Source: Candidatus Gottesmanbacteria bacterium
Lineage (GTDB): Bacteria; Patescibacteriota; Microgenomatia; UBA10105; UBA927
NCBI GenBank assembly: GCA_963790805.1
Contig: CAWBPL010000002.1
Location: 576,696 to 640,695, forward strand
Length of the DNA stretch: 64,000 nt
Direction: 5' to 3'
Part shown: positions 1 through 64,000 of the stretch, piece after piece
Layout: each line of letters starts with the position of its first letter
How positions within the stretch are numbered: the stretch's first letter is position 1
Program-made: the position numbers and the translations under genes
Notes under the pieces: generated by a model
The model's database searches: none
What the model was told of the DNA's origin: nothing
Seen by the model: only the letters and a program-made list of their open reading frames with translations

Positions 1-1
1 T

Positions 2-754
2 AAAAAGCTTAATGCTCTTGGTTTTACGCAGGATGAAGCGGACGTGTATGTAGCCTTATATAACAGGGCTCCTGTGTCACCATTGTCGCTATCGCGGGAA
101 ACCGGCATTAACCGATCAACCGTCTATCGGATAGTCGAACGTCTGGAGCAGTCGGGATTCGTCAAGCGGACGGTGGAATATAAAACAACGCGGTATGTTG
201 CCAATTCAGCCGAAAGCCTCACATTATTCGTATCACAGAAAGAGGCAGAGGTTCAAAAGCTGAAGCAGGAGATGGCGCCGTTGTTGCGGGAACTTGATGC
301 TTTGCCACCAGAAGCGGATAACGGTCCGACCCACGTGTATTATTACAAAGGAGTTAGTGGTCTTCGACAGTTATTGTGGCATACGCTTGAAGCAGAAAAT
401 GAAGTTGTGGGATTTGGGTATACGGATTGGAATGCTGGGATTGGTAAGCGTTTTGCCGAAAAAATCCGCGCGCAGTACGTTGAGCGCAATCTTCATGCAA
501 AAGAATTATTAAATCAAGACCCCCTAAATTTTACCGATATCAAAGAATATCTGCGCATCTGTTATGAACATCGGGTAATTCAGAAAAATATATTGCCCAT
601 CCAGCACGATACGTACATTTATAACGATGTGTTTGCGTTTTACCATATATACAAAGGCGAATTATTCGGTGTGGAAATCCATAATGCAGAAATTGTTAAT
701 ACCCAGCGGCGGCTGTTTTATCTTCTTTGGAAACAAGCAAAGAAAGCAAAATAG
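2..754 (+). CDS. TrmB-family HTH transcriptional regulator (probably 5'-partial)
   Basis: The frame is open from nt 2 (KKLNALGFTQDEADVYVALY...), so the true start probably lies left of the window. The ORF-track start is GTG at 44. The N-terminal winged-helix motif is typical of TrmB regulators (GFTQDEADVYVALYNRAPVSPLSLSRETGINRSTVYRIVERLEQSGFV). A C-terminal domain of about 150 aa follows. Confidence 0.7.
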   Translation, partial: KKLNALGFTQDEADVYVALYNRAPVSPLSLSRETGINRSTVYRIVERLEQSGFVKRTVEYKTTRYVANSAESLTLFVSQKEAEVQKLKQEMAPLLRELDALPPEADNGPTHVYYYKGVSGLRQLLWHTLEAENEVVGFGYTDWNAGIGKRFAEKIRAQYVERNLHAKELLNQDPLNFTDIKEYLRICYEHRVIQKNILPIQHDTYIYNDVFAFYHIYKGELFGVEIHNAEIVNTQRRLFYLLWKQAKKAK

Positions 755-3078
755 GACTTCGCTATTTTGTCAATTCGTTATATGATTCCAGTATGGGTTC
801 TGATTTTTGGCTGGTTGTTCGCTGGTGGGGAACATTGTTTTTGATCGGTACCATCGCATATCCACTCACAAAGCGGTTATTTTCTTCATGGTTTGACAAC
901 GGATATCTTTTTGCCAAAGCCGTCGGCATGCTTCTTGTGACATACCTCGTCTATCTATCAGGAATGTTTCATCTTTTTCCTTTCACGACAGCAACGATAT
1001 TCGGTTCAATTGTCGCGGTATTTGTCTTCGGCATGGCGATTAACGTTGTGGTTCCCGATGGAGTTATCCGGCACGAAAAGGGGGCTGTCAATGACTACAT
1101 GAAAAAAATACTTATAGCAGGTCTTGAAGAGCTATTCTTCTTCGGTGCGCTTCTTTTTTGGGCATGGATCAAAGGGCATGAACCGAGTATCCATAATCTT
1201 GAGAAATTCATGGATTACGGATTCACGAAATCGATATTAAACAGCACATTTTTTCCGCCGAATGATATGTGGTATGCGGGATTTCCCGTCAATTATTATT
1301 ACTTCGGCCACACGGTCATGGCGATGCTCACCAAACTCTCAGGTATCGATTTAGCCTATACCTTCAACATTATGCTCGCGACATTATTTGCCTTTACTTT
1401 AACCATGAGCTTCAGCATTGCGTACCAACTTTTCGGACACATTGAACGCGTGACGTTTCGCGTGCGGCTCGTGGGCGCGATTGTTACGTCCTATATCGTG
1501 ACGCTTGGCGGGAATCTGCAGACGATTTATGCATTTACCAAAGGATATATCGGGGACAATCCGCCGCCGTTTTGGACCTTACTTTGGAATTTCAATGAAC
1601 TCGGGCGCTTAAGCGAGGGGCTGGAGCGCTATTGGTATGCAAATGCCACACGTTTTATCCCGTTTACGATCCATGAATTTCCAAGTTACTCGTTTGTCGT
1701 CTCCGATGTCCATGGGCACGTGTTGAGTTTGCCGTTTGTGCTTCTGGCAATCGCAATGCTCATAAGTATTTTTGGACTGGTCAAACGAACGAAAGAAACG
1801 GGAGGATTGTTTGTTTTTTCACGCGGACAAACGGGAGCGACACAGGTACAGAAATTCTTTGCCGTCGGTCCGTATGTATTTTATGGACTGTTGGCATCGG
1901 TTCTTCTTATGACCAATGCGCTTGACGGGCCGATATACGCAGGTCTTTTTTGTATACTTATTCTCTTTTTTCACTCCCAGCGCGCCTCCGAACTCAATCA
2001 GTCTTTTTGGGACGACTGGCCGCAGTTTGTTTTTCCCATAGGAATTGTGAGCGCGGTGGCAGGTATAGCCAGCATTCCGTTTTTATTGCATTTCAGTTCG
2101 TTCGTGAACGGACTTGCCATAAACTGTCCGCCGGCGTTTTTAGCAAATCACCGGTTCGGGCCATTTCTTTTTGAAGGAGTAGAGAAGTGTCAGCATTCGC
2201 CGCTCTGGATGATGGCGCTTTTGTGGGGGTTTTTTATCTACTGCGGATTATGGTTTTGCTGGAGATTTTTGAAACAATCCAATAAGCTGGAAAAGAATAC
2301 AAAAGATACCCGTATACAATGGCTTCTCGTTGTCATGTTTATTTTTTGCTGTCTTCTTATTATTTTCCCAGAATTTTTCTATTTTAAGGACATCTATCCG
2401 CAGCATTTCCGCTCCAATACCATGTTTAAGCTCGGGTATCAGGCATTTATCATGTTTGGTCTTATTTCCGGCTACGCGATTACGTGGCTCCTTACACGGC
2501 TTCGGACGCTGAGGGGAAAAGGGAAAGGTGCTGATGTGCTGTTTTTCATTGTCCTCTTGCCGCTTTTATTTCTCGTTGTTATCTATCCCATTTTCAGCGT
2601 GCGATCGTATTTTGACAGCTTACGAACCTATGAGGGATTGTATGGTTTAACGTGGCTGAACGAGCAGTATCCCAGCGATTTTGCGGGTATTCAATTTCTT
2701 AATGCCCGAATTACTGCCGGTGACCCCAAAAATTTGCCGGTTATCGTCGAAGCGGATGGCGACAGTTACACCGATTATGCGCGCTATAGTGCATTTACGG
2801 GACTTCCCGCGGTCGTCGGCTGGCCGGTCCACGAGTGGCTTTGGCGCGGTTCGTATGATGTCGTAGCGCCGCGACGGGACGATGTTTCTAAAATTTATAC
2901 ATCCGATGACCTTGAAGAAACGCGTGCAATTCTTCAAAAATATCATGTACGCTACATAATTGTGGGAACGCTTGAATGGCAAAAGTATCCGAATCTGCGC
3001 GCTGAGAAATTTATCCTTCTCGGGCGTCAAGTATTTTATGACGGAGTAACGAGTATTTACGAGGTCACGTCCCCGTAA
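727..3078 (+). CDS. DUF2298 / YYY-motif polytopic membrane protein (GT-C-like)
   Basis: This 783-aa ORF has many hydrophobic helices. It carries the signature FPVNYYYFGH of the DUF2298 (chlor_Arch_YYY) family and has a soluble C-terminal domain. The ORF-track start is TTG at 727, which overlaps the upstream gene. ATG at 793 (MGSDFWLVV...) is the more plausible start. Confidence 0.75.
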   Translation: METSKESKIGLRYFVNSLYDSSMGSDFWLVVRWWGTLFLIGTIAYPLTKRLFSSWFDNGYLFAKAVGMLLVTYLVYLSGMFHLFPFTTATIFGSIVAVFVFGMAINVVVPDGVIRHEKGAVNDYMKKILIAGLEELFFFGALLFWAWIKGHEPSIHNLEKFMDYGFTKSILNSTFFPPNDMWYAGFPVNYYYFGHTVMAMLTKLSGIDLAYTFNIMLATLFAFTLTMSFSIAYQLFGHIERVTFRVRLVGAIVTSYIVTLGGNLQTIYAFTKGYIGDNPPPFWTLLWNFNELGRLSEGLERYWYANATRFIPFTIHEFPSYSFVVSDVHGHVLSLPFVLLAIAMLISIFGLVKRTKETGGLFVFSRGQTGATQVQKFFAVGPYVFYGLLASVLLMTNALDGPIYAGLFCILILFFHSQRASELNQSFWDDWPQFVFPIGIVSAVAGIASIPFLLHFSSFVNGLAINCPPAFLANHRFGPFLFEGVEKCQHSPLWMMALLWGFFIYCGLWFCWRFLKQSNKLEKNTKDTRIQWLLVVMFIFCCLLIIFPEFFYFKDIYPQHFRSNTMFKLGYQAFIMFGLISGYAITWLLTRLRTLRGKGKGADVLFFIVLLPLLFLVVIYPIFSVRSYFDSLRTYEGLYGLTWLNEQYPSDFAGIQFLNARITAGDPKNLPVIVEADGDSYTDYARYSAFTGLPAVVGWPVHEWLWRGSYDVVAPRRDDVSKIYTSDDLEETRAILQKYHVRYIIVGTLEWQKYPNLRAEKFILLGRQVFYDGVTSIYEVTSP

Positions 3079-3291
3079 ATTTTGAGGTTGCAACATCTGT
3101 CGCGGGTGATTCCTTCGGGGTGCTTCGCATCTTCTCACCATCACCGGAGATGATCTCTTTTCTTTGTTTTTTGTCAAATGTAACCACTGGGGGAGTATAT
3201 TTTCGTCTTTTGGCTCCGGTTTGTGATGGTTGCGAATATGCGAGACAACCCTTAGAAAAAATCCACATCGCTCGCGCGCGGCAGGACCAAG

Positions 3292-4197
3292 TTAAAACCC
3301 ATACGCCGACAAACCGGCATTTCCTATTCGAATCCTCGGGAGAAAAAAACGCTGTCCCCTGCACAGTGTTGATCCGGGGTACGTAGTAAAGGCAAGCTTA
3401 TACCCGAGACGCTCGAGTACCGAAACGGCGTAATTGTTGGGGAACCCATAGGGATACGAAAATACTTTAAACGCATTCAGTCCGTGCTGCGCCAGCTGTG
3501 TGTCGGCGGTTGTAATCTCGCGATCATCAATAGCGTCGCCTGCGCTCACGCTTCTATGGCTCCATGTGTGGTTTCCAAAGTAAAAATTGCCTGATCCGAG
3601 TTGGCTTAATGTATTCCACGACATAAAACCGGGATTGTTCAAAAGTCCGGTTGCAATAAAAGAAGTTGCCTGAAACCCAAATTCGCGGATAATAGGGGCC
3701 GCGTCAGTACCAAAATCATCGTATCCATCGTCTATAGTCAAAAGCACCGGTTTTGGAGGAAGTAGCGCGCCGCTGTCAAAAAACGCGATAAGCTGTTGGG
3801 GGCTAATGGTCGTATATCCATGATCTTTAAGGTATTGCATCTGACTTCTGAAGATATTGACGTCTACGGTGAGCTGGGCGTGGCCTAACGTTTTGGCGGT
3901 TGCCAGATCCTGAATATGATGCCAGAACAATACCGGCACAGAGGCGCACGGACCATACATCTGGTTCATCTCTTCAAACGTCAAAGGACGGGGAGTGGGA
4001 GTGGGAGTGGGTTTTGGCGTTGGCGTTGGCGTTGAGGTTGGAGTCGCCGTGGGGGTGGCAAGAATTGGTGAGAGGGCGGTGAATGTTATGATTGCTTTTT
4101 GATTGATTTTTTGAGGGACATGAATGGGGAGGATTCCTAACCCTGTCAATCCGATGGTGAGAAATGCAGCCGGAAGAAAATAGAAAAACTTAATCAT
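3292..4197 (-). CDS. polysaccharide deacetylase (NodB/CE4 family) with N-terminal signal anchor and Pro/Thr linker
   Basis: NodB motif 1 is LLTIDDGYDDF and motif 2 is GNHTWSH. The N-terminal hydrophobic segment is FFYFLPAAFLTIGLTGLGIL. The PT linker TPTATPTSTPTPTPKPTPTPTPRP is encoded by short tandem hexamers at about 3989-4060. Confidence 0.85.
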   Translation of the reverse strand: MIKFFYFLPAAFLTIGLTGLGILPIHVPQKINQKAIITFTALSPILATPTATPTSTPTPTPKPTPTPTPRPLTFEEMNQMYGPCASVPVLFWHHIQDLATAKTLGHAQLTVDVNIFRSQMQYLKDHGYTTISPQQLIAFFDSGALLPPKPVLLTIDDGYDDFGTDAAPIIREFGFQATSFIATGLLNNPGFMSWNTLSQLGSGNFYFGNHTWSHRSVSAGDAIDDREITTADTQLAQHGLNAFKVFSYPYGFPNNYAVSVLERLGYKLAFTTYPGSTLCRGQRFFLPRIRIGNAGLSAYGF

Positions 4198-4246
4198 GAT
4201 TTCTATTGTTCACGAAACACCGGAAGGTTGCAATATGGGTATGGTA

Positions 4247-4275
4247 TTGACAAGGAGGGGAGAACATGATTAAAT
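4247..4275 (+). promoter_or_regulatory. candidate sigma70-type promoter upstream of rho
   Basis: TTGACA (4247-4252), a 17-nt spacer, then TTAAAT (4270-4275, 4/6 match to TATAAT). This would give a leader of about 150-160 nt. It rests on the sequence pattern only. Confidence 0.3.
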
Positions 4276-9085: not shown

Positions 9086-9111
9086 TGATAGAAATATAGC
9101 ACAAACAGATA

Positions 9112-18306
<9,195 letters not shown>

Positions 18307-18425: not shown

Positions 18426-18501
18426 TATGTGTCAAATATGATGCGGGAATAGATGCGTAACAAAGCTAAACTATGGGGTGTAATAAAATGATGGGGAGTG
18501 A

Positions 18502-57763: not shown

Positions 57764-57772
57764 CGTGATCGT

Positions 57773-58429: not shown

Positions 58430-61034
58430 ACGGGAGAGCGCAGATAACTACCGCAAGGATAGTCACCCACAACAAGAATACTTTTTGCTTCGATGGTTCG
58501 TACCACGCTACGATCGTATGTGTGCCGGCAGCTACCGGTATGCCGATGAAGAAGGGGAATACGATAAAGGGTTTAACGGATTTTCCGTCGACGGTCACGC
58601 GCCAGTTAGGATGAAAGGTTTCCTTTAGAACGACGATACAGTCAGGGCAATTGGCGCCAACCTCCACGTTTGTTTTGAAGATCATGTCCGTGTCGTCAAC
58701 TTCCGGGCCCAAAAGCTTCATGTCGTTGTATTGTTCGCGTTTCACCTTCGCTAATTGTTGTACGGATTCAAATCCCGGCGGTAAATACACCGGAGGTTCC
58801 GAGAACAGGCCATGCGTTTTGCCGTCTGGGGTTATGTAATCGGCTTCATCGGTCATTTTGAAGTTCGGAAGTCCGGTTGCATGCGGATAACTTGTATCAA
58901 ACGTCATTTCGGGGTACAGGCCATAGGCGGAATCGTTCGATTGAATCCACAGATGTACGAGGTTCATAAATGATTGTCTCCCGATCGATACAATTGCCGG
59001 TCGCACGCCGACGGTAAAATAGCCGCTTGTCGGGATTTCGTAGAGTTTCCATGTCGGTGATTGATCGATAAGCTTCCAGAAAGACTTCGGCGGTTCATCG
59101 GGGGGCGCTGCAGCCCAGCGGATGTTGTAGAGATCATAATCCTTGAGCGCGTCCTCGCTGAAATCCTGTTCGGTATCGGAGTTCATCGACCACGTCTCAG
59201 GGAGCCACATCGTCGTCTGGAGGCCGTAGGTGGAAAGATTCATAAAGTACGGGGTTTCCGCGACTTTAAAGTTTTTTCCATAGCTTCCTCCGCGTCCGGC
59301 ATAAATTCGCCCCGGCGCAAGCGATCGCAGCTTGGCAAACAGTGCCTGCTCGTCGGATGCGACCGCCGCATGACTGGTATTGGCGCGAAGAATAAGCTGT
59401 TCATTGAGCTGGTTATACGTGACTGACCACTGATAGATGCGCGGGATTATGATGACTATCATAAATAAATAGACAGATAAACGGATAAAGACATAGTTCA
59501 GACGCGTGTGAGCAACTTTTCGAAGAACCGCGTCGACAAAGCCTGACAGATATTCCGCCAACCATGCAAATCCGATGGGGGATAACAACATTCCGGCCAC
59601 GTGGACGCCGACCAAAAATCGGGAAAGGTGGAAGTCTTTCATGCCGGGAATCATGTCAATAAGACTTCCCCACGTGGTTCTGCCGAAGTAGAAGAGGAGC
59701 CAGAAGATAAACAAGAATGATAATGGGGAAAGGGTTGGCGTATTAGGTATTATGGCTAGCTGTTTGTTGTCTTTTGTTTTTTCCGTAATACCTAATACCG
59801 ATCCCACAATACGTTTTGTAACTGTTGGTAATAGACAAACAAGAACTCCAAGAAGGGTAAGTAATGTGATGTACGGTCCGCGGCCGAAGTCAAAGAGGTC
59901 GCCGTCAAACAGGCGGATCATTGTTTCCTTAATGCCGTAGGAATTAAATTTCCATACGGGATCCCAGAAGGAAATGTTATGGTAATTGCCCTGCAGAAAT
60001 ACCGGTACGATCCAATAACTTAATAGGAAAATAGAGATACCGACAACAAGGATAAGGCGGATGATCTGATCGACGAGAGAATCCCAGACGTCGCGAAGTG
60101 GCTCCTGCCGTAAAAATTTCACTACGGGAATGCCGATGGCAAGAAATCCGATCGACAGCATGGCGATCATGCCGATTCCTAAGTGGCCAGCTGTGGTGGC
60201 GGTAACGTAGAAAATTGCCCAGAGAAGATCGCGCGTTGGTCGGCGCGCTGTGGTTCTCGCATCGTCAAGGACCGGACCATTTTTGCTCCATAAATTCTTT
60301 TTTGCCAAGGCCGTGACGATAGCTCGAAACAGCGCGCCTCCCCGAGCGATAGTTATAAAAGTGGTTTTTAGTTTCTCTATGAATTGTTTTCCGGATACGA
60401 CTACCTCTTCTTTGGGGAGCATAAAAAACCGGTATGAATACGCGATAGCCAGCGGCAGCCAGATCATGGCAAAAAGCTGGCTTGACAGGCCGTAGCCCCG
60501 CCAGAGAAAGGACGAGGGGTCCAGTCCGTAAAGTCCGTCGGTCGAGAGGTTTGAAGCTATAAGCGCCCCGATTCCTGCCGTCAGCCACGGGAGGTCCATA
60601 AGAAGGAGGGCCCAGAAGACCGCCGCGGGGAATATACATAATAATATGTAGATAACTATGTGATAGTAGTGAAAAAGGGTGAGTTGTGGGGCAAAAAGAG
60701 CCAAAAACCGCCATGAGCCGACGATCAGTATCTGGGGCACATGGGAGTAGTAGAATGGCAGGTTATAGCCTTCGGCCCAGTTGGGCACCCAGTGGTCGGC
60801 TAAATACAGGAAATGGCAGACAGGGAAGGTAATTATGCCGGTAAAAGATGATGAACACTTTTTGGTTGCGAAATCCCACATTGTGTTTGTCCTGTCGACC
60901 AATCCGAATTGGAATGCATTGTCATTCGGATCGACCGTCGCGGTGGGCTCCAGACGATAGAGCCAGAAGTTAAACCCGACGGCAAAAAGAAGCATCGCTA
61001 TACCTAAAATTTTTTCAATCGTTGTTTTTTTCAT
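58401..61034 (-). CDS. large (877 aa) polytopic membrane protein, GT-C/YfhO-like (family unresolved)
   Basis: It has more than 15 hydrophobic helices. An acidic first loop (TVDPNDNAFQFGLVDR) follows TM1. A soluble domain of about 300 aa is followed by a terminal TM helix (FLLWVTILAVVICALPFIVSLRKKK), as in YfhO-type proteins. Confidence 0.55.
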   Translation of the reverse strand: MKKTTIEKILGIAMLLFAVGFNFWLYRLEPTATVDPNDNAFQFGLVDRTNTMWDFATKKCSSSFTGIITFPVCHFLYLADHWVPNWAEGYNLPFYYSHVPQILIVGSWRFLALFAPQLTLFHYYHIVIYILLCIFPAAVFWALLLMDLPWLTAGIGALIASNLSTDGLYGLDPSSFLWRGYGLSSQLFAMIWLPLAIAYSYRFFMLPKEEVVVSGKQFIEKLKTTFITIARGGALFRAIVTALAKKNLWSKNGPVLDDARTTARRPTRDLLWAIFYVTATTAGHLGIGMIAMLSIGFLAIGIPVVKFLRQEPLRDVWDSLVDQIIRLILVVGISIFLLSYWIVPVFLQGNYHNISFWDPVWKFNSYGIKETMIRLFDGDLFDFGRGPYITLLTLLGVLVCLLPTVTKRIVGSVLGITEKTKDNKQLAIIPNTPTLSPLSFLFIFWLLFYFGRTTWGSLIDMIPGMKDFHLSRFLVGVHVAGMLLSPIGFAWLAEYLSGFVDAVLRKVAHTRLNYVFIRLSVYLFMIVIIIPRIYQWSVTYNQLNEQLILRANTSHAAVASDEQALFAKLRSLAPGRIYAGRGGSYGKNFKVAETPYFMNLSTYGLQTTMWLPETWSMNSDTEQDFSEDALKDYDLYNIRWAAAPPDEPPKSFWKLIDQSPTWKLYEIPTSGYFTVGVRPAIVSIGRQSFMNLVHLWIQSNDSAYGLYPEMTFDTSYPHATGLPNFKMTDEADYITPDGKTHGLFSEPPVYLPPGFESVQQLAKVKREQYNDMKLLGPEVDDTDMIFKTNVEVGANCPDCIVVLKETFHPNWRVTVDGKSVKPFIVFPFFIGIPVAAGTHTIVAWYEPSKQKVFLLWVTILAVVICALPFIVSLRKKK

Positions 61035-61239
61035 ATATTCTCTACAAAATTATGTGTTCACTCGTGACAAAATTTTCTTGATCCGCTACTCGCAATAGTC
61101 TGTCTCTTAATATATCAAGATCGTTCTAAGCTCGGGAAGTGATCTGCGAAAATTTTATCACCTCGTTCGCGCTTATATTCTTCGAAAAATTTACTACTTC
61201 GCGTCCTCACTTCACCCGCTTCACTTTGCCAAACTGTGC

Positions 61240-63141
61240 TTACGGAATAAGATACGTATTCAACCAGTCTGCATGATCATCCGTAATGCCGTTCCCGCCG
61301 TCGTTGACGATAAGCTCCAATGTCTTTACACCGGTGACGTTAACGACAACATGATGCGGAGGGTCGTAGCGCCGTACAATATCGGATGCAAAGAGTTTTT
61401 TGCCGTCACCATACACGGCAAACTGGACGCTCCCTTGCGGACCGCCGTTAGTATCGACGCCATAGTCTGTGGTAAGTTTGCTGAATTTTTTATTGATATC
61501 AAATACTTCCTGCGATACGGCGTGGGTACCAAGCCCGTGCCGGTAAAAGAAATACTGGTCAGATAAAAAGCCCCATTTTGCGAATCCGAAACTTGCCATA
61601 ACCGGCATGTCCACCTGCCGTTGACCGTATCCGGTGATGCTGATGATAGGAGTAAATTGGGTTATGGCAACAGGACGTTTGGTAATAAGCGGCATATTTT
61701 TTATAGTGAGAAGTAGTACAAAACTTCCGATCCAGATAAACCATGCAAATGCCGGTATGTGCCGCCTGAGAATGTAGAGAAACCAGAAAAATAATCCGAT
61801 CTGAATGAAAGATGCGCCGATCGTCATTGTTGTCGTGTTGAGAGGATTTAAAAACGGGATGCCGTTTTTCGGATAATTTTGAATCATGGCGTTATGGATG
61901 TTGTAGAAAAAGACAGTGCAGAATATGCCGTAGCCGATCAGGAATTGTTTTAATATTTTGCTGTCGATAATGTGTTCGAGATTTTTGGGGTTTACGATCG
62001 CGAAAAAATACGGAGCCCACAACAAAAGGAATACACAAATGGGGAAGGCGTACCGGTCATGCGATTCTGTCTGGAAGAGAAAAAATCCGGCAGCTGCGAC
62101 AATAAGCGCTGAAAGATACCGGAAAACGAGGGACCGCTCTTCAATGGGATCAGAATTGATGGTGATTTTGACGCCTGATTTTGTCCTCCAGAGCTTGGTT
62201 AACGTTTGACTGACCATGATAAAAACGGACAGGAGATACGTTGCGGAAAACATATAGAGTCCGACGGTTTTTGCATTGGCAATCCCGATCCCCGCGATTT
62301 TATCGGAGATTTTCATTCCGTGGCCTCCGGCGACGATCCACCACACATTATATGCGTTGAGAGAAAGCCACGGAAAATAGTCGTAATTTCCCGTCAAGTC
62401 GCTTGCGACCCGCGCCATGTTTCGCGCCCGAATAAATTCAAAATTCGTGGCGAGAAATGCGCCGAGCGCGCCGCCGACTGCCTGCAATAATCCTTCAAAC
62501 CCGAGATATTGCCAGACGAATACGAAAAAAATCGGACCGTAAATCATATTTTGCAGCTTTGTCATCATGGAAATCATATATATGACACCGCCCAAGAGCG
62601 GTTTTTTTGACAATACGAAGCAGTTGGCGATAAGAAATAGAAGGACCCCCACGCTATCCACTTGGCCCCAGAGAGCTCCGTCAAAAAATGACAGTGGGTT
62701 GAGTATATAAAGAAGTGCCAGAAATACAAAAAAAATATACGGAAATGTCGGAAACCCAATCTTTTTGGCGTGTTTCCCGATCCACAAAAAGACTGCAAAT
62801 ATGCCGAAATCAGCGAGTATCGACGGGGCTTTGGAGATTGCCAAGAATAATATGTTTACGTTGCTCCAATATTCATTAAAATTGTGCGGATCCGCGAACC
62901 AGCCGTAGATTGTCGCCATAAGAGATAGCACATAGGCAAACGGCGTGGGGTAGTTGAAGTTGGTGAGTGGCAGGCCCTTGACGATGCCAAAGTCACGTAC
63001 TGCCAGCCCCCATGATTTCCAGAACGCAATATCCGCTTCAAAGCTGGGGTTAGGAATAAGAACCAATCGAAAAAGGAGAGCAAAAAGAAGCAGAAATTTC
63101 AGATTATTGGCATTTTCTATGTATGCAAAAACTTTCTTCAT
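61240..63141 (-). CDS. GT-C-like polytopic membrane protein fused to a C-terminal NPCBM carbohydrate-binding module
   Basis: The N-terminal 480 aa or so are multi-TM, with the first-loop motif FEADIAFWKSWG. The C-terminus reads GLGTHAVSQEVFDINKKFSKLTTDYGVDTNGGPQGSVQFAVYGDGKKLFASDIV...VNVTGVKTLELIVNDGGNGITDDHADWLNTYL. This matches the NPCBM pattern (G.HA.S...y.l...y..F...vGvDd......sV.F.V..DGk.l..S......V.v.G...L.LvV.d.gdg...DHAdWa.a.l). Confidence 0.7.
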   Translation of the reverse strand: MKKVFAYIENANNLKFLLLFALLFRLVLIPNPSFEADIAFWKSWGLAVRDFGIVKGLPLTNFNYPTPFAYVLSLMATIYGWFADPHNFNEYWSNVNILFLAISKAPSILADFGIFAVFLWIGKHAKKIGFPTFPYIFFVFLALLYILNPLSFFDGALWGQVDSVGVLLFLIANCFVLSKKPLLGGVIYMISMMTKLQNMIYGPIFFVFVWQYLGFEGLLQAVGGALGAFLATNFEFIRARNMARVASDLTGNYDYFPWLSLNAYNVWWIVAGGHGMKISDKIAGIGIANAKTVGLYMFSATYLLSVFIMVSQTLTKLWRTKSGVKITINSDPIEERSLVFRYLSALIVAAAGFFLFQTESHDRYAFPICVFLLLWAPYFFAIVNPKNLEHIIDSKILKQFLIGYGIFCTVFFYNIHNAMIQNYPKNGIPFLNPLNTTTMTIGASFIQIGLFFWFLYILRRHIPAFAWFIWIGSFVLLLTIKNMPLITKRPVAITQFTPIISITGYGQRQVDMPVMASFGFAKWGFLSDQYFFYRHGLGTHAVSQEVFDINKKFSKLTTDYGVDTNGGPQGSVQFAVYGDGKKLFASDIVRRYDPPHHVVVNVTGVKTLELIVNDGGNGITDDHADWLNTYLIP

Positions 63142-63146
63142 ATCGG

Positions 63147-63899
63147 TTATTTTGTTGACCAGCTGACGCTGTCGACGATGTGATTGAATGCGGATGCGTC
63201 AAGAATTCCACTTGCCAGATGAATAACGTATTGCGGATTGGGTACTTCAAAAAACACATCATCGTTCGGCGTCCGGCCAGCGCTATCGATGTATTTTGCC
63301 CGATAGCCCTTAAGCCCTTTGCTATTGGTAAATTCGGTAATTGATGCGACGCCCTTGAGTCCGAATTGCTTATACCATGTTTCAACGTACGAGCGTTTTG
63401 CGACGTTGATATATTGTTTTGCCGAATCCCTGCTTTCAAGGTTATCAACGCCGATAAGAACATTTTGATCGGGAGGAGTGTTGTTCCACGCAATTGCATA
63501 AATATCGTATGTATCGTTGGGAAACGTAACGAGTTTGAGCGTTTTGGGAGATTCGAATGCGTATGGATATATACGGCCTCTGACAGTCACCCATACGGCA
63601 TCGCGGGTTACGGCAAATTTACCCTGTCCGGTTATGTATGTACCGTCTTTAGTTGAACTAGGCGGGGTGCTTACCGGCGTGTCGGTCGGAATTACGGCAA
63701 CTGGTGGCGGTTGTATGCCGCCGTTTGCTCCTGCGTTCGGACCTAAATAGGTGCCGCCTGCCGGAATGACGATCGTGCCGTGTTGTTGAAATGAAAGATT
63801 ATGTTGAAGAATGAGAAGTAATAGAGCGGTTAAAACGATGCCAACAATGAAATTGGATGAAATTTTTATTTTAGGTAGTTCTATTGTTTCTTCATCCAT
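63147..63899 (-). CDS. hypothetical signal-anchored extracytoplasmic protein
   Basis: This 250-aa ORF has an N-terminal TM helix (FIVGIVLTALLLLILQ), a Pro/Thr linker and then a beta-rich domain. It ends 5 nt upstream of the next gene in the same orientation, suggesting an operon. Confidence 0.55.
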   Translation of the reverse strand: MDEETIELPKIKISSNFIVGIVLTALLLLILQHNLSFQQHGTIVIPAGGTYLGPNAGANGGIQPPPVAVIPTDTPVSTPPSSTKDGTYITGQGKFAVTRDAVWVTVRGRIYPYAFESPKTLKLVTFPNDTYDIYAIAWNNTPPDQNVLIGVDNLESRDSAKQYINVAKRSYVETWYKQFGLKGVASITEFTNSKGLKGYRAKYIDSAGRTPNDDVFFEVPNPQYVIHLASGILDASAFNHIVDSVSWSTK

Positions 63900-63908
63900 A
63901 ATTCGCCC

Positions 63909-63917
63909 ATTGTAGCA
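63909..63917 (-). promoter_or_regulatory. extended -10 element (TGCTACAAT on the - strand) only 9 nt upstream of the ATG at 63899
   Basis: The - strand reads ...TTTTTTCTGCTACAATGGGCGAATTATG. The spacing implies a leaderless or nearly leaderless transcript for the three-gene operon 63899->58401. Confidence 0.4.
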
Positions 63918-64000
63918 GAAAAAATAAAATTGTGTGAAGGGGTTTTTGCGCTTTGGGCGGTATACATTTTGTGCGCATCCGTCAAGAAGGCTTGAGGTTG

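What the first reader, a model, noticed from the sequence alone, without database searches (positions are those of the whole stretch)
1..64000. Locus-level view: an envelope/attack island built around two giant surface proteins
The two giant genes fill 46,155 of 64,000 nt. Almost every other gene in the window acts on the cell envelope: a NodB deacetylase, a LysM-M23 endopeptidase, five GT-C-like or DUF2298 membrane proteins and an NPCBM module. The only informational genes are rho, a TrmB regulator and two tRNAs. Giant adhesin-like and multi-hydrolase proteins concentrated together with glycan-building enzymes is what one would expect of the contact interface of an obligate epibiont or predator. 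No integrase or transposase is visible, so I cannot tell from this window whether the region is accessory.
Basis: inference. Interest (0 to 1): 0.55.

Follow-up and report, generated by a model that had tools for sequence, protein, structure and literature searches.

The report
Hypervariable giant-gene slots in Gottesmanbacteria
A stretch of chromosome from an ultra-small, probably host-dependent bacterium (Candidatus Gottesmanbacteria) carries a 3,060-residue collagen-stalked fibre gene and a 12,323-residue non-repetitive membrane megaprotein gene at two fixed positions in an otherwise conserved housekeeping and envelope neighbourhood, and related genomes hold very different, mosaic or no giant genes at those same positions.

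Summary
The counts and gene list are correct. ORFs 9112-18294(-) and 20792-57763(+) total 46,155 nt, and all the named small genes are there. The organism is a Candidatus Gottesmanbacteria (CPR/Patescibacteria).

It is not an acquired island. DUF2298-rho-LysM/M23-tRNA-Ala x2-YfhO-like-NPCBM-p250 is a backbone conserved across relatives. The giants sit in two variable slots:
- **Slot A (rho|M23):** filled in some relatives, empty in others.
- **Slot B (tRNA-Ala|YfhO-like):** holds a giant ORF in about two thirds of relatives and is empty in the rest, including a complete 1.09-Mb chromosome.

Slot-B giants share an N-terminal anchor and a Cys-rich ectodomain. Otherwise they are mostly unalignable or share patchwork blocks.

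G1 is a membrane-anchored fibre. It has two cytoplasmic MerR/BldC-like HTHs, one TM, about 121 collagen triplets, a LamG domain and a phage tail-fibre-like tip.

G2 is not a repeat adhesin. It carries an intact HINT self-cleavage module, NAGPA, five HExxH motifs (0.07 expected), 5-6 FHA domains, a tandem GNAT-fold module, a C-terminal polytopic domain and a Cys-rich tail. Much of it is probably cytoplasmic. An Omnitrophota 6,400-aa protein shares FHA, domain X and HExxH motifs; a 6,078-aa protein labelled Nanoarchaeota shares part of domain X and carries two HExxH.

Host contact is plausible but inferred. Verdict: partly supported; new variant of a known kind.

The parts
44..754 (+). TrmB/MarR-type winged-HTH regulator (236 aa). 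It was not found in the rho or m877 neighbourhoods of relatives.
   Evidence: Pfam TrmB 37.5 bits; no tblastn or blastp hit in 150 loci
727..3078 (+). DUF2298 / chlor_Arch_YYY polytopic membrane protein (backbone gene, 44-57% identical in relatives)
   Evidence: Pfam DUF2298 298.8 bits; TIGR03662 456.8 bits; 11 TM-like segments
3292..4197 (-). NodB-type polysaccharide deacetylase (PgaB/IcaB-like) with an N-terminal TM and a Pro/Thr linker. It is specific to this genome at this position.
   Evidence: Polysacc_deac_1 62.9 bits; PgaB/IcaB partial hits; absent from relatives' loci
4431..6113 (+). Transcription termination factor Rho (backbone gene, used for taxonomy)
   Evidence: Rho_RNA_bind + ATP-synt_ab; best relatives are Candidatus Gottesmanbacteria at 68-69% over the full length
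6114..9085 (-). Two polytopic membrane proteins: m512 (6114-7652) and m478 (7649-9085). m512 belongs to a paralogous 500-580-aa family that recurs in this neighbourhood in relatives. The function of both is unassigned.
   Evidence: 7 and 8 TM-like segments; no Pfam, NCBIfam or PDB hit; 43 m512-like ORFs in related loci
9112..18294 (-). G1, 3,060 aa: membrane-anchored collagen-stalk fibre (occupant of slot A)
17935..18270 (-). G1 aa 9-120: two MerR/BldC/excisionase-type HTH domains, cytoplasmic side
   Evidence: MerR 71 bits, MerR_1 63 bits, HTH_17 49 bits, two stretches each; PDB 6ama/6amk 'putative DNA-binding protein'
17563..17619 (-). G1 aa 226-244: single transmembrane anchor
   Evidence: Kyte-Doolittle 2.44 over 19 aa; the only such segment in G1
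16354..17448 (-). G1 aa 283-647: collagen-like Gly-X-Y region, 121 triplets in two runs (about 100 nm if it forms a triple helix)
   Evidence: Pfam Collagen 136.6 bits; PDB collagen and BclA hits; 9-nt periodic DNA repeats
11815..12279 (-). G1 aa 2006-2160: Laminin_G_3 / concanavalin-A-like lectin domain
   Evidence: Pfam 77.6 bits
9115..10494 (-). G1 aa 2601-3060: phage tail-fibre/tailspike-like distal part. The last ~70 aa form a confidently modelled beta domain that is conserved in Microgenomates fibres.
   Evidence: 17 homologues, some with K1-lyase_C and one with Peptidase_S74; AF2 pLDDT >90 for the last 70 aa; Foldseek PDB tailspike and R-pyocin fibre; BFVD 64 hits at E<=1e-3, those with informative names being phage tail-fibre or tailspike proteins
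18706..19842 (+). LysM x2 + M23 peptidoglycan endopeptidase (DipM/NlpD-like). Backbone gene, adjacent to rho across Microgenomates.
   Evidence: found in 69 of 80 rho loci
19920..20198 (+). tRNA-Ala(GGC) + tRNA-Ala(CGC) pair. It is present after M23 in all relatives checked, but in all four order/orientation arrangements.
20792..57763 (+). G2, 12,323 aa: non-repetitive multi-domain membrane megaprotein (occupant of slot B)
20948..21004 (+). G2 aa 53-71: N-terminal signal-anchor TM. The first ~110 aa are conserved in slot-B giants of relatives.
   Evidence: KD 2.56; phmmer and BLAST hits in L001, L004, L012, L014, L015, L017, L018, L019, L020
21152..26395 (+). G2 aa 121-1868: Cys-paired ectodomain (46 Cys, nearly all in closely spaced pairs), including two 99-nt Cys-loop module repeats at 21103-21300 with a partial third unit
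   Evidence: the same layout occurs in relatives
21680..22159 (+). G2 aa 297-456: HINT / bacterial-intein-like self-cleavage domain with intact motifs (S299-FVAGT, TGRH367, VHN454)
   Evidence: PT-HINT 26.8 bits, Hint_2, Intein_splicing, Hint; PDB 2lwy BIL domain; motifs read from the sequence
25679..25801 (+). G2 aa 1630-1670: 41-aa hydrophobic stretch (hairpin or single span). Some relatives have TM-like segments at comparable depth (aa ~1,260-2,050), near where Cys density declines.
33146..33202 (+). G2 aa 4119-4137: the strongest TM segment in G2
   Evidence: KD 2.95
34436..34948 (+). G2 aa 4549-4719: NAGPA phosphodiester glycosidase domain
   Evidence: Pfam 92 bits; PDB 6pki and related entries
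37892..38176 (+). G2 aa 5701-5795: FHA domain
38405..39331 (+). G2 aa 5872-6180: HExxH-bearing domain (HEAGHLDQ at 6045). It is the only internal duplicate, paired with aa 9081-9350.
   Evidence: self-BLAST 29% over 320 aa, E 3e-15
45974..47764 (+). G2 aa 8395-8991: cluster of four FHA domains
   Evidence: Pfam FHA 130.8 bits, 4 stretches; positions; FhaB/TagH-type hits
48032..48841 (+). G2 aa 9081-9350: second copy of the HExxH-bearing domain (HEWGHRDQ at 9219)
49484..54436 (+). G2 aa 9565-11215: mosaic block. It is 48.6% identical over 1,680 aligned positions to a giant in the distant relative L112, and its first ~1,000 aa (aa ~9,500-10,500) are low in GC3 in both genomes.
51989..53416 (+). 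G2 aa 10400-10875: 'domain X', an unannotated ~470-aa module with a helical N-half and a GNAT-fold C-half
   Evidence: exhaustive search hits in large and standalone proteins; AF2 pLDDT 81; Foldseek hits are almost all GNAT acetyltransferases
53444..53917 (+). G2 aa 10885-11042: canonical GNAT acetyltransferase domain
   Evidence: Acetyltransf_1 22.1 bits, above the 20.7 cut-off; about 100 standalone GNAT homologues down to E 1e-24
54503..56242 (+). G2 aa 11238-11817: polytopic membrane domain (about 9-11 TM-like segments)
   Evidence: no homologue found by the word-indexed search
56174..57760 (+). G2 aa 11795-12323: Cys-paired, Pro-rich C-terminal ectodomain with HEMLHQ at 12184
   Evidence: the last ~200 aa are similar to L091, L135 and P0021
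57773..58429 (+). p218: small protein with a C-terminal TM, 10 nt after G2. No homologue found.
58401..61034 (-). m877: large polytopic membrane protein, weakly YfhO-like (backbone gene bounding slot B)
   Evidence: YfhO 22.1 bits, below cut-off; 41-65% identical in 70 metagenome loci
61240..63141 (-). Polytopic membrane protein (9 TM-like segments) with a C-terminal NPCBM glycan-binding module (backbone gene)
   Evidence: NPCBM 109 bits
63147..63899 (-). p250: single-TM protein of unknown function (backbone gene)

Best explanation
The window is ordinary chromosome of a Candidatus Gottesmanbacteria (Microgenomates, CPR/Patescibacteria). Its backbone is a conserved housekeeping and envelope gene order: polytopic membrane proteins, DUF2298, rho, LysM-M23, a tRNA-Ala pair, a YfhO-like membrane protein, an NPCBM membrane protein and p250. 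This backbone contains two fixed 'slots' that hold fast-evolving giant envelope genes.

**Slot A (between rho and M23) holds G1.** The domain layout is shown. An N-terminal pair of MerR/BldC-type HTH domains sits in the cytoplasm. One transmembrane helix follows. The rest is an extracellular fibre made of about 121 collagen triplets, about 1,350 residues of Gly/Thr/Ser/Asn-rich sequence, a LamG lectin domain and a distal part that resembles phage tail fibres. Inferred: G1 trimerises and acts as a roughly 100-nm-plus binding fibre.

**Slot B (between the tRNA-Ala pair and the YfhO-like gene) holds G2, a single non-repetitive 12,323-residue protein.** Shown, in order along the protein:
1. A signal-anchor TM.
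2. A ~1,800-residue ectodomain full of paired cysteines, containing a HINT self-cleavage module with intact catalytic motifs.
3. A ~2,250-residue cysteine-free charged region.
4. One strong TM.
5. A ~7,100-residue segment carrying NAGPA, four HExxH motifs, 5-6 FHA domains and a tandem GNAT-fold module.
6. A polytopic membrane domain.
7. A Cys-paired C-terminal ectodomain with a fifth HExxH.

Inferred for G2:
- The protein is inserted via Sec and spans the membrane several times.
- The N- and C-terminal Cys-rich parts are outside.
- The FHA/GNAT segment is cytoplasmic.
- HINT, and possibly the zincin-like modules, cut the precursor into pieces.
- G2 would then couple a variable outward-facing recognition or hydrolase surface to phospho-threonine-reading and acyl-transfer modules inside the cell.

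**Evolution.** The slot-B gene keeps its position, its N-terminal anchor and its general layout in relatives. The body is replaced, lost or recombined block by block. That pattern is expected of a determinant under diversifying pressure, most plausibly contact with hosts or phages. The host-contact step is inferred.
For: **Taxonomy.** Rho's best matches are Gottesmanbacteria MAGs.

**Backbone and slots.** tblastn and ORF maps of 80 genome loci and 70 metagenome loci were used.
- L003 (complete 1.09-Mb chromosome), L006, L021 and L022 have M23 and the tRNA-Ala pair followed directly by m877-NPCBM-p250. L088 and L095 also have M23 next to m877. L013 has slot B empty but three ORFs of 257-738 aa in slot A.
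- L001, L005, L012, L014, L015, L017 and L018 have an ORF of 1,760-2,800 aa or more running off the locus after the tRNAs.
- 21 metagenome loci have an ORF of 1,344-3,281 aa converging on m877; 19 of these run off the locus.
- G1-like genes occupy slot A in L019, L020 and L011, and lie directly downstream of rho in L007, L009 and L010, whose loci end before any M23.
- The tRNA-Ala pair is always present but occurs in four arrangements.

**Common origin with divergence.**
- The G2 N-terminal ~110 aa are found in slot-B giants.
- All seven N-terminal fragments checked are Cys-rich over the first 1,000-2,000 aa and then Cys-free, and six of the seven show a TM at aa ~24-70.
- 13 of 21 C-terminal fragments have no BLAST match to G2, although the flanking genes are 41-69% identical.

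**Mosaicism.**
- The L112 block is 48.6% identical over 1,680 aligned positions, while its m877 is only 43% identical and its termini are unrelated.
- The first ~1,000 aa of that block show a GC3 dip in both genomes.
- Other blocks match L005, L085, L119, L107/L120 and L091/L135.

**G1 anatomy.**

**G2 anatomy.**

**Cytoplasmic assignment of the FHA/GNAT segment.**
- FHA and GNAT biology is established knowledge.
- Standalone domain X proteins, and 104 of 109 small GNAT homologues, have no TM or signal-like segment.
- A 2026 preprint reads TM-only Omnitrophota giants as membrane-anchored with cytoplasmic bulk.
Against: - Topology is not resolved. NAGPA lies in the same inter-TM segment as FHA and GNAT, and NAGPA is usually extracytoplasmic.
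- The charge bias around TM 4119-4137 (two Arg on the N side) points the other way. Only a Kyte-Doolittle scan was available.
- The HExxH modules have no family support in Pfam, NCBIfam or PHROGs.
- The PT-HINT score is just below Pfam's cut-off (26.8 against 27.7).
- No expression, processing or localisation data exist, and no close strain was found to test intactness within a population.
- Loci reach only 10 kb from the anchor gene, so no relative's slot-B giant was seen whole. 'Unalignable' therefore compares only the first or last ~2,000-3,300 residues.
- In L005 the G2-like gene, and in L011 the G1-like gene, are split into overlapping ORFs. This is either decay or sequencing error.
- No host is known for Gottesmanbacteria.
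Confidence: 0.6

Rival explanations
1. One reading: the whole window is an accessory 'envelope/attack island', co-inherited or acquired as a unit. In this view both giants are surface adhesin or hydrolase proteins forming the contact interface with a host or prey.
For: The giants take 72% of the window. The small genes are envelope-related. The region lies next to tRNA genes. The organism is a CPR bacterium. G1 is fibre-like. G2 has NAGPA and HExxH motifs.
Against: The small genes keep the same order in relatives that lack both giants (L003, L006, L021, L022, L088, L095), and rho-M23 adjacency extends across Microgenomates. There is no integrase, no flanking direct repeats and no inverted repeats. 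The GC of the giants equals that of the flanks except for one internal block. G2 carries FHA and GNAT modules of cytoplasmic type.
Confidence: 0.08
2. G2 is a self-processing multi-effector polyprotein, working like a MARTX toxin or a polymorphic toxin. The Cys-rich ends and hydrophobic segments bind and insert into the host envelope. HINT and zincin-like modules cut the chain. The cytoplasm-type modules (FHA, GNAT, zincins, NAGPA) act inside the host cell, not inside the symbiont.
For: There is a pretoxin-HINT-type domain with intact motifs. Five HExxH motifs occur, three of them as HExxHxxQ. Enzymatic modules that need cytoplasmic substrates share one inter-TM segment with an 'extracellular-type' NAGPA. 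Blocks are shuffled among lineages as in polymorphic toxins. An Omnitrophota giant shares FHA, domain X and HExxH motifs; a large protein labelled Nanoarchaeota shares part of domain X and has two HExxH.
Against: HINT sits near the N-terminus, not before a C-terminal toxin. No immunity-like gene array follows G2; only p218 does. There are no MARTX repeats, no cysteine protease domain and no T1SS, T6SS or T7SS genes in the window. No toxin family was detected. Translocating thousands of residues into another bacterium has no precedent.
Confidence: 0.15
3. G2 is a housekeeping envelope-biogenesis or division scaffold of the symbiont itself. It would be membrane-anchored and mostly cytoplasmic. 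Its FHA domains would read Ser/Thr-kinase signals, as FhaA and FipA do in actinobacterial wall synthesis. It sits beside the DipM/NlpD-like M23 gene and glycan-handling membrane proteins, and would have no direct role in host contact.
For: FHA hits to FhaB/FipA-type models. The neighbouring M23 is DipM/NlpD-like. The GNAT modules are cytoplasm-type. Omnitrophota TM-only giants have been interpreted as cytoplasmic bulk.
Against: A housekeeping scaffold should be conserved. The slot is empty in about one third of relatives, including a complete genome, and the occupants are mostly unalignable. About 2,300 residues carry paired cysteines typical of exported domains.
Confidence: 0.14
4. Artefact or relic: the 37-kb ORF is an assembly chimera of several strains' genes, or a decaying gene that is no longer expressed.
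For: One block has a different GC3. Relatives show split ORFs (L005, L011). The word-indexed search found no homologue for two tested regions of about 1,100-1,200 aa each.
Against: There is no stop codon in 12,323 codons, while every other frame is broken within 248 aa. The layout (anchor, Cys-rich region, hydrophobic segment, Cys-free region) is conserved in independent assemblies. Catalytic motifs of HINT, and the GNAT and FHA domains, are preserved. The same GC3 dip occurs in the L112 copy, so the block boundary is biological.
Confidence: 0.03

Closest known systems
Large and giant membrane proteins of Omnitrophota ('Archaeovorin' and 'Dockerin' types; West-Roberts et al. 2023, bioRxiv 10.1101/2023.11.21.568195; 2026 preprint 10.64898/2026.06.07.730766)
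   Same: Both come from an ultra-small bacterium with a small genome. Both are single ORFs over 10,000 aa with several TM segments, mostly unannotated sequence with scattered divergent enzymatic domains, suspected self-processing and ambiguous topology. One Omnitrophota protein (P0030, 6,400 aa, named 'FHA domain-containing protein') shares domain X, three FHA domains and three HExxH motifs with G2.
   Different: G2 comes from a different phylum (Patescibacteria). No SecA_DEAD, C39 or S8 domain was detected. At 12,323 aa it falls in that paper's 'large' class, not its 'giant' class (>=30,000 aa). Here the gene has a fixed chromosomal slot, a conserved N-terminal anchor and a mosaic body; the passages of those two papers that I read did not mention this.
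Giant membrane proteins of the CPR predator Vampirococcus lugosii (Moreira et al. 2021, PMC8080830)
   Same: Both are CPR bacteria. In both, the membrane proteome is enriched in very large proteins thought to form a fibrous surface and mediate host recognition.
   Different: The ten longest Vampirococcus proteins are 1,392-4,163 aa and carry WD40, TPR and PKD interaction domains. G2 is three times longer and carries FHA, GNAT, HINT and NAGPA instead. No homology between them was tested.
Bacterial collagen-like surface fibres (Bacillus BclA, streptococcal Scl) and phage tail fibres or tailspikes
   Same: G1 has a long Gly-X-Y region matching collagen and BclA. Its C-terminal part matches tailspike, R-pyocin-fibre and K1-lyase C-terminal domains by fold, and family members carry K1-lyase_C or Peptidase_S74.
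   Different: G1 is anchored by an N-terminal TM preceded by two cytoplasmic DNA-binding-type HTH domains. It is 3,060 aa long and has a LamG domain. There is no sequence match in the phage collection, and no S74 chaperone domain was found in G1 itself.
Polymorphic toxins with pretoxin-HINT, and MARTX multi-effector toxins
   Same: Shared features are a HINT self-cleavage module with S, TxxH and HN motifs, modular blocks exchanged between lineages, and several enzyme-like modules in one chain.
   Different: HINT lies 300 residues from the N-terminus, not before a C-terminal toxin. There is no recognised toxin domain, no immunity gene, no RTX or MARTX repeats, no CPD and no dedicated secretion genes nearby.
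Repeat-built giant adhesins (Ebh, Bap/RTX adhesins, SiiE-type)
   Same: Size class and membrane or surface association.
   Different: G2 has essentially no internal repeats: one diverged 300-aa pair and two to three small Cys-loop modules. It has no LPXTG motif.

Membership tests
Omnitrophota-type large/giant membrane proteins (West-Roberts et al. 2023) | Single ORF of >=10,000 aa ('large') or >=30,000 aa ('giant') | tested here: met
   12,323 aa. This meets the 'large' class only (definition read).
Omnitrophota-type large/giant membrane proteins (West-Roberts et al. 2023) | Numerous transmembrane regions | tested here: met
   13 segments at KD >=1.6, including a C-terminal cluster. This is a hydropathy scan only.
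Omnitrophota-type large/giant membrane proteins (West-Roberts et al. 2023) | Divergent SecA DEAD helicase / preprotein-binding domains (in most members) | tested here: not met
   No SecA_DEAD hit in Pfam scans of the whole protein in 1,000-aa and 4,900-aa pieces. No Walker A motif.
Omnitrophota-type large/giant membrane proteins (West-Roberts et al. 2023) | Encoded in Omnitrophota | tested here: not met
   Rho places the window in Candidatus Gottesmanbacteria.
Repeat-built giant adhesins (Ebh/Bap/RTX type) | Tens of tandem Ig-like or other repeats making up most of the length | tested here: not met
   Self-BLAST finds one diverged pair only. DNA repeat finders find nothing in G2 beyond the 99-nt modules.
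Repeat-built giant adhesins (Ebh/Bap/RTX type) | LPXTG sortase signal or RTX nonapeptide/T1SS signal | tested here: not met
   No LPxTG and no GGxGxD in G2.
Polymorphic toxin with pretoxin-HINT | PT-HINT domain above family threshold | tested here: inconclusive
   PT-HINT scores 26.8 bits against a cut-off of 27.7. Hint_2, Intein_splicing, Hint and PDB 2lwy also hit. The S299, TGRH367 and HN454 motifs are present.
Polymorphic toxin with pretoxin-HINT | HINT immediately precedes a C-terminal toxin domain, followed by an immunity gene | tested here: not met
   HINT is at aa 297-456 of 12,323. No toxin family was detected. The only downstream gene is p218, which has no homologue.
MARTX toxins | N- and C-terminal glycine-rich repeat regions, a cysteine protease domain and T1SS export | tested here: not met
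   No repeats, no CPD or RTX hit, and no T1SS genes in the window.
Bacterial collagen-like proteins (BclA/Scl type) | Uninterrupted Gly-X-Y region | tested here: met
   121 triplets at aa 283-414 and 417-647. Pfam Collagen 136.6 bits. PDB BclA E 5e-9.
Bacterial collagen-like proteins (BclA/Scl type) | Trimeric assembly nucleated by a globular terminal domain | not testable with these tools
   Only a monomer model was made. The C-terminal ~70 aa are confidently folded and resemble trimeric tailspike C-terminal domains.
Phage tail fibre / tailspike C-terminal domain (K1-lyase_C, Peptidase_S74) | Pfam K1-lyase_C or Peptidase_S74 hit in the protein itself | tested here: not met
   No such hit in G1 at E<=0.05. 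Homologues P0004, P0002 (weak) and P0017 have them. The fold-level resemblance is supported.
Genomic island | Integrase or other mobility gene | tested here: not met
   None in the window.
Genomic island | Insertion next to a tRNA gene with flanking direct repeats | tested here: inconclusive
   Slot B abuts the tRNA-Ala pair, but no direct repeat of a tRNA 3' end flanks G2.
Genomic island | Presence/absence among relatives with a conserved flanking order | tested here: met
   This holds for each giant gene separately, not for the window as a whole.
Diversity-generating retroelement target | Reverse transcriptase plus template/variable repeat pair | tested here: not met
   No RT gene or space for one, and no matching repeat pair.
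GT-C glycosyltransferases (for m512, m478, m877 and the NPCBM protein) | Significant match to a GT-C family profile or structure | tested here: inconclusive
   m877 has YfhO at 22.1 bits against a cut-off of 28.5. m512 and m478 have no hit. Profiles of the m512 and m877 families find nothing in PDB sequences, and hhalign between them gives probability 9.8%. No structure model was made.

The most novel reading that the evidence does not exclude
G2 and its slot-mates are trans-envelope 'contact polyproteins'. In this reading the hypervariable Cys-rich ends recognise a particular host surface. HINT and zincin-like modules cut the chain. The cytoplasm-type cargo (FHA, tandem GNAT, zincins, NAGPA) is delivered into, or acts at the junction with, the host cell. 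The same toolkit (FHA + domain X/GNAT + HExxH in proteins over 6,000 aa) is used by unrelated ultra-small lineages (CPR and Omnitrophota, possibly DPANN), which would make it a shared molecular basis of the episymbiotic lifestyle.
Probability: 0.12. Interest if true: 0.85.

Novelty: new variant of a known kind. Interest (0 to 1): 0.58.

Why it matters
How CPR bacteria recognise and exploit hosts is an open question, and no host is known for Gottesmanbacteria.

This locus offers a concrete genomic handle. It has two fixed chromosomal positions, easy to find next to rho, M23 and the tRNA-Ala pair. There the genome spends about 4% of its roughly 1 Mb on giant envelope proteins that differ radically between relatives.

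If those proteins set host or phage specificity, then:
- slot content should track host range;
- the slots could serve as markers in co-occurrence studies.

The mix of exported Cys-rich domains with FHA and GNAT modules in one chain also bears on how giant proteins of nanobacteria are laid out across the membrane. The Omnitrophota papers leave that point ambiguous. In addition, an unannotated ~470-aa helical + GNAT-fold module ('domain X') is defined here and occurs in many very large proteins.

Tried and rejected
**Searches that failed or returned nothing**
- Exact look-up of the window's Rho in the gene-position index: not on record, so the sample of origin is unknown.
- The search for homologous proteins with G2 aa 11200-12323 and aa 1001-2200: nothing. 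tblastn does find a 37-38% relative of aa 1216-1995 in L005, so the word-index candidate cap or database coverage limits that tool here. Absence of hits is not evidence of orphan status.
- PDB sequence searches of G2: only BIL, NAGPA and FHA fragments.
- NCBIfam on G2 pieces: FHA only.
- PHROGs on HExxH regions, G1, p218 and p250: nothing.
- Pfam at E<=10 on 300-aa windows around each HExxH: nothing meaningful; the best was ATLF at E 0.15.
- PDB profile searches for domain X and for the m512 and m877 families: nothing. hhalign of m512 against m877 profiles: no relation.
- tblastn of the G1 tip against 50,697 phage records: no match.
- Rfam: only the two tRNAs.

**Ideas considered and rejected**
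- DGR-type hypervariation: no RT and no template/variable repeats.
- Integrase-mediated island: no mobility genes.
- Repeat adhesin: no repeats.
- Alternative genetic code: all genes are well formed under table 11.

**Not resolved**
- Whether G2 aa 1630-1670 is one span or a hairpin.
- The parity of the C-terminal TM cluster.

Full report
**1. The observation**

ORF listing gives 9112..18294 (-) at 3,060 aa and 20792..57763 (+) at 12,323 aa. Inside G2 the longest ORF in any other frame is 248 aa, so the 12,323-codon frame is not chance.

The small genes are as described:
- TrmB-type HTH at 44-754.
- DUF2298 at 727-3078, which is also TIGR03662 'chlor_Arch_YYY' at 456.8 bits.
- A NodB/PgaB-like deacetylase at 3292-4197(-).
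- rho at 4431-6113.
- LysM x2 + M23 at 18706-19842.
- tRNA-Ala(GGC) and tRNA-Ala(CGC) at 19920-20198.
- A polytopic protein with a C-terminal NPCBM at 61240-63141(-).

These rest.

Five proteins are polytopic by hydropathy: DUF2298 (11 segments), m512 (7), m478 (8), m877 (9) and the NPCBM protein (9). Calling the last four 'GT-C-like' is not verified. m877 has a sub-threshold YfhO hit. m512 and m478 hit nothing in Pfam, NCBIfam or PDB, and profiles of the m512 and m877 families do not match each other.

There is no integrase or transposase, and no room for one.

**2. Whose genome**

Rho's best full-length matches (68-69%) are MAGs labelled Candidatus Gottesmanbacteria or mislabelled TPA bins. 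Woesebacteria, Beckwithbacteria and other Microgenomates follow. One relative, OY970230.1, is a complete 1,088,247-bp chromosome.

On that scale G2 alone is about 3.4% of a genome, and G1 + G2 about 4.2%. The exact Rho protein is not in the gene-position index, so the sample of origin is unknown.

**3. The locus is a conserved backbone with two variable slots**

I ran tblastn of all window proteins against the 80 rho-anchored loci. I also built ORF maps of the 23 closest loci, and a second set of 70 metagenome loci anchored on m877.

These show a recurrent order: [two ~550-aa membrane proteins] DUF2298, rho, (slot A), LysM-M23, tRNA-Ala pair, (slot B), m877, NPCBM protein, p250, m512-like.

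*Loci without giants.* In L003 (the complete chromosome), L006, L021 and L022, M23 and the tRNAs are followed within 0.6-2 kb by m877, so neither slot holds a giant. L088 and L095 also have M23 next to m877. L013 has slot B empty, but three ORFs of 257-738 aa lie between rho and M23.

*Slot B occupied.* In L001, L005, L012, L014, L015, L017 and L018 an ORF of at least 1,760-2,800 aa starts after the tRNAs and runs off the 10-kb flank. L004, L019 and L020 show its first residues. On the other side, 21 metagenome loci have an ORF of 1,344-3,281 aa converging on m877, and 19 of these run off the locus.

*Slot A occupied.* It holds a G1-like gene of 1,300-1,750 aa in L019, L020 and L011. G1-like genes also lie directly downstream of rho in L007, L009 and L010, whose loci end before any M23.

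TrmB, NodB, m478 and p218 have no counterpart in any of the 150 loci, so they are placements specific to this genome.

The backbone is core. Each giant gene is individually variable.

The tRNA-Ala pair is always present, but it occurs in all four combinations of order and strand. In L151 the slot-B genes lie inverted next to M23 and rho. This is a rearrangement-prone spot.

**4. Slot-B giants are one gene lineage with a replaceable body**

The first ~110 residues of G2 (cytoplasmic stub plus TM 53-71) are recognisable in L001, L004, L012, L014, L015, L017, L018, L019 and L020. All seven N-terminal fragments checked are Cys-rich for 1,000-2,000 residues and then Cys-free. Six of the seven show a TM-like segment at aa ~24-70, and some show another hydrophobic segment near where Cys density declines.

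Beyond that, similarity to G2 is patchy:
- L005: 38% over aa 1216-1995.
- L012: 26-42% over about 1,100 aa.
- L017: 24% over 743 aa.
- L001, L014, L018: under 10% of the fragment aligned.
- L015: N-terminal anchor only.

Of the 21 C-terminal fragments, 13 have no BLAST match to G2 at E 1e-4. This includes L117, whose m877 and NPCBM proteins are the closest found (65% and 69%).

Conversely L112, whose m877 is only 43% identical, shares a block that is 48.6% identical over 1,680 aligned positions (G2 aa 9565-11215). That block is flanked on both sides by unrelated sequence. Its first ~1,000 aa (G2 aa ~9,500-10,500) have GC 0.41 and GC3 0.38, against about 0.50 and 0.48 in the rest of G2. The L112 copy shows the same dip.

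Smaller shared blocks link G2 to L085, L119, L107/L120 and L091/L135 at different relative positions. This is a mosaic built by block exchange or differential replacement.

One limit applies. Loci reach only 10 kb from the anchor gene, so no relative's giant was seen whole.

**5. G1**

Read from the N-terminus, G1 contains:
1. Two MerR/HTH_17-type HTH domains (aa 9-52 and 75-120). The second resembles the small DNA-binding proteins of PDB 6ama/6amk.
2. A single strong TM at aa 226-244.
3. 121 Gly-X-Y triplets in two runs (aa 283-414 and 417-647), matching collagens and BclA.
4. About 1,350 residues of Gly/Thr/Ser/Asn-rich sequence with no family hit.
5. A Laminin_G_3 domain at aa 2006-2160.
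6. A C-terminal 460-aa part.

These rest.

Of the 17 homologues of the C-terminal part that were found, those carrying a source name are from Gottesmanbacteria, Shapirobacteria or other Patescibacteria. They include members with K1-lyase_C and one with Peptidase_S74.

The AF2 model of that part is poor overall (pLDDT 60), as expected for a monomer cut from a fibre. Its last ~70 residues are confident, above 90. Foldseek places them with the C-terminal domains of phage tailspikes and R-pyocin fibres (7eea, 6ct8, 9k4a; E about 3e-3, probability 1.0). The viral library gives 64 hits at E<=1e-3; those with informative names are phage tail-fibre, tailspike, tail or virion proteins, or proteins with K1-lyase_C domains, many others are unnamed phage proteins, and two are from Marseillevirus.

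The HTH-TM-collagen-conserved-tip layout recurs in L019, L020 and L011. The tip alone recurs in large proteins of other Microgenomates.

I read G1 as an N-in, membrane-anchored, probably trimeric binding fibre. Its collagen stalk would be about 100 nm long (363 residues x ~0.29 nm, from general knowledge of collagen). What the cytoplasmic HTH pair does is unknown; it could be a membrane-tethered regulator or a DNA tether.

**6. G2**

G2 is not built from repeats. Self-BLAST finds a single diverged pair (aa 5872-6180 against 9081-9350, 29% identical). DNA repeat finders find only two 99-nt Cys-loop modules (with a partial third unit) near the 5' end. Family libraries annotate only about 6% of its length.

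Along the chain:

(i) *TM 53-71.*

(ii) *aa 121-1868.* This region holds 46 cysteines, nearly all in closely spaced pairs. That pattern is typical of exported disulfide-bonded modules.

(iii) *HINT.* Within that region, aa 297-456 form a HINT/bacterial-intein-like domain. It hits PT-HINT (26.8 bits), Hint_2, Intein_splicing, Hint and PDB 2lwy. All three catalytic signatures can be read directly: S299-F-V-A-G-T, T-G-R-H367 and V-H-N454. Self-cleavage near aa 299 and/or 454 is therefore likely, and it would separate the N-terminal anchor from the rest.

(iv) *aa 1630-1670.* A 41-aa hydrophobic stretch.

(v) *aa 1869-4840.* No cysteine at all. The sequence is charged and low in proline.

(vi) *TM 4119-4137.* The most hydrophobic segment in the protein (KD 2.95).

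(vii) *aa 4138-11237.* No hydrophobic segment above 1.6. This stretch contains:
- NAGPA at aa 4549-4719 (92 bits).
- FHA domains at aa 5701-5795, 8395-8481, 8701-8764, 8781-8885 and 8928-8991. Pfam counts 5-6.
- Domain X at aa ~10400-10875.
- A canonical GNAT at aa 10885-11042 (22.1 bits, above cut-off, with about 100 standalone GNAT homologues down to E 1e-24).

These rest.

(viii) *aa 11238-11817.* A cluster of about 9-11 TM-like segments.

(ix) *aa 11795-12323.* A Pro-rich tail with paired cysteines again.

*HExxH motifs.* Five occur, at aa 4351, 6045, 7976, 9219 and 12184, where composition predicts 0.07. The Poisson probability is about 1e-8. Each follows a hydrophobic stretch, as in zincin active-site helices. 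Three read HExxHxxQ, and two lie in the duplicated domain. No library recognises them, so 'zincin-like' is a motif-level inference. The same excess appears in the C-terminal fragments of relatives' giants, 17 observed against about 0.5 expected, and not in the N-terminal fragments.

**7. Domain X and the wider family**

The exhaustive profile-free search with G2 aa 10016-11215 found 238 proteins. The ~470-aa domain X occurs in many proteins of 1,500-6,400 aa and in standalone proteins of 440-550 aa, none with a Pfam assignment.

With eight sequences in the alignment, AF2 gives pLDDT 81 and pTM 0.60. The model has a helical N-half and an alpha/beta C-half. Foldseek matches the C-half almost exclusively to GNAT acetyltransferases (probability ~1.0, E 3e-3 to 6e-2, TM-score normalised to target 0.4-0.55). 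G2 therefore carries a tandem GNAT-fold module.

Standalone domain X proteins, and 104 of 109 small GNAT homologues, have no TM or signal-like segment. These modules are therefore of cytoplasmic type.

Two large homologues carry source names:
- A 6,400-aa 'FHA domain-containing protein' from an Omnitrophota MAG (MFA5146512.1). It also has three FHA domains and three HExxH motifs.
- A 6,078-aa partial 'GNAT family N-acetyltransferase' labelled Nanoarchaeota (MFC1704729.1). It aligns to the GNAT-fold half of domain X and into the adjacent GNAT domain (G2 aa 10,624-11,030) and has two HExxH motifs; my FHA profile found no FHA domain in it.

These rest. The FHA + domain X + HExxH repertoire thus recurs in an Omnitrophota giant, and part of it in a large protein labelled Nanoarchaeota. 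The taxonomic labels are the depositors' and were not checked.

**8. Topology and mechanism**

Two models fit the hydropathy.

*Model A.* aa 1630-1670 form a hairpin. aa 72-4118 are outside and aa 4138-11237 are inside. This puts the FHA and GNAT modules where phospho-threonine and acyl-CoA exist, but puts NAGPA inside.

*Model B.* There is a single crossing near aa 1640. aa 1671-4118 are inside and aa 4138-11237 are outside. This suits NAGPA and the charge bias at TM 4119, but strands six FHA and two GNAT-fold domains outside. It also contradicts the three Cys pairs at aa 1682-1868.

I favour Model A, at roughly 55:30, with the remainder for a delivered-effector reading. The reason is that two independent domain classes in many copies argue for it, against one domain for B. 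A recent preprint also reads TM-only Omnitrophota giants as cytoplasmic bulk anchored in the membrane.

On Model A, G2 would be a self-processing trans-membrane assembly. Its variable Cys-rich recognition and hydrolase parts face outward. A very large scaffold faces inward, reading Ser/Thr phosphorylation and transferring acyl groups. Everything beyond the domain map is inference.

**9. Comparison with what is known**

*Omnitrophota giants.* West-Roberts et al. define proteins of >=10,000 aa as 'large' and >=30,000 aa as 'giant'. They find them mainly in Omnitrophota and other PVC phyla, Actinobacteriota, Myxococcota and Margulisbacteria. They note many TM segments, SecA_DEAD domains, possible self-cleavage and unreliable topology. 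CPR are mentioned only as predators, and FHA is not mentioned. G2 fits the 'large' class and the general description. It lacks SecA_DEAD and belongs to another phylum.

*Vampirococcus.* Its largest proteins reach 4,163 aa.

*Gracilibacteria.* Hypervariation of a surface-protein gene has been described there, but as a PTD repeat array. That mechanism is absent here.

*This locus.* In the library searches I ran I found no description of a position-conserved, anchor-conserved, body-mosaic giant gene next to rho-M23-tRNA-Ala in Microgenomates. That is not proof of absence.

**10. Verdict**

This is a CPR bacterium. G1 is a credible binding fibre, and G2 has exported and hydrolase-type parts. But the window is not an island. 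G2 is not an adhesin-like repeat protein, and much of it is probably not on the surface.

What is really there is a pair of hypervariable giant-gene slots in a conserved neighbourhood. One occupant is a 12,323-aa mosaic megaprotein. An Omnitrophota giant shares FHA, domain X and HExxH motifs; a large protein labelled Nanoarchaeota shares part of domain X.

Novelty: new variant of a known kind. Interest: 0.58.

Noticed in passing
window 19920-20198; L001-L022, L088, L095: The tRNA-Ala(GGC)/tRNA-Ala(CGC) pair follows M23 in every relative checked. It appears in all four order/strand arrangements, and in L020 the two genes are split and divergent. This points to repeated small inversions or rearrangements at the edge of slot B.
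   Followed up: partly
window 20245-20345: Three GC-rich hairpins lie just downstream of tRNA-Ala(CGC): GTCGCG-TAAT-CGCGAC, and GCCGAG-TACT-CTCGGC twice. Each is followed by GCCACA(G/A) and they are spaced ~40 nt apart. Two more hairpins lie between the tRNAs. There is no Rfam match, and the function is unknown (terminators, processing sites or recombination sites).
   Followed up: partly
window ~20400-20609 (-): An unannotated 70-aa ORF with an Arg/His-rich N-terminus and one TM segment (MKKKVLRRTHHRASVRRTH...), divergent from G2. It lies upstream of a sigma-70-like promoter match for G2 at 20684-20713.
   Followed up: no
window 49300-52300 (G2 aa ~9500-10500); L112 14374-22632: A GC/GC3 dip (0.41/0.38 against about 0.50/0.48) covers the first ~1,000 aa of the block shared with L112, and the L112 copy shows the same dip. 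This suggests a cassette of lower-GC origin moving between lineages.
   Followed up: partly
L151 1-19921 (ENA ERZ27247363 k141_2995130): In this relative the slot next to M23-rho holds three large genes in inverted orientation: 3,306 aa with domain X and a G2-like C-terminal block, a 677-aa TPR protein, and 3,285 aa with the G1-type tip. The 3,285-aa protein has precomputed Phage_int_SAM_1 hits, so it may be a second kind of DNA-binding-type domain attached to a G1-like fibre.
   Followed up: no
L005 8559-16351; L011 7194-13761: The G2-like gene of L005 and the G1-like gene of L011 are split into overlapping ORFs (897 + >=1,761 aa; 1,302 + 362 + 488 aa). This is either gene decay in those populations or frameshift errors in the assemblies. 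In L011 the breaks are in or near the collagen repeats.
   Followed up: no
window 6114-7652 (-); 43 ORFs in L081-L146, L003, L006: m512 belongs to a family of 500-580-aa polytopic proteins present in 1-3 copies per neighbourhood in relatives (20-27% identical to m512). It has invariant D46, Y50, P171-H172 and R328 and no match in Pfam, NCBIfam or PDB.
   Followed up: partly
G2 aa 10400-10875 (window 51989-53416); P0018-P0043, P0118: 'Domain X' is a widespread unannotated module with a helical N-half and a GNAT-fold C-half. It has an invariant GxxxGTCxGxxP...R motif including a conserved Cys (G2 C10725), and it is sometimes fused to HEAT repeats (P0024).
   Followed up: partly
L024-L080: rho-M23 adjacency is conserved across Woesebacteria, Beckwithbacteria and other Microgenomates. 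Large ORFs (1,300-2,470 aa), often carrying LamG repeats or the G1-type C-terminal tip, commonly lie just downstream of M23 there as well.
   Followed up: partly
record titles: Many of the closest genome records are titled 'uncultured Gammaproteobacteria', 'Pseudomonadales', 'Clostridia', 'Nanoarchaeia' or 'Bathyarchaeia', although their rho, M23 and DUF2298 genes are clearly of Microgenomates type. These look like taxonomic mislabels in third-party MAG submissions.
   Followed up: no
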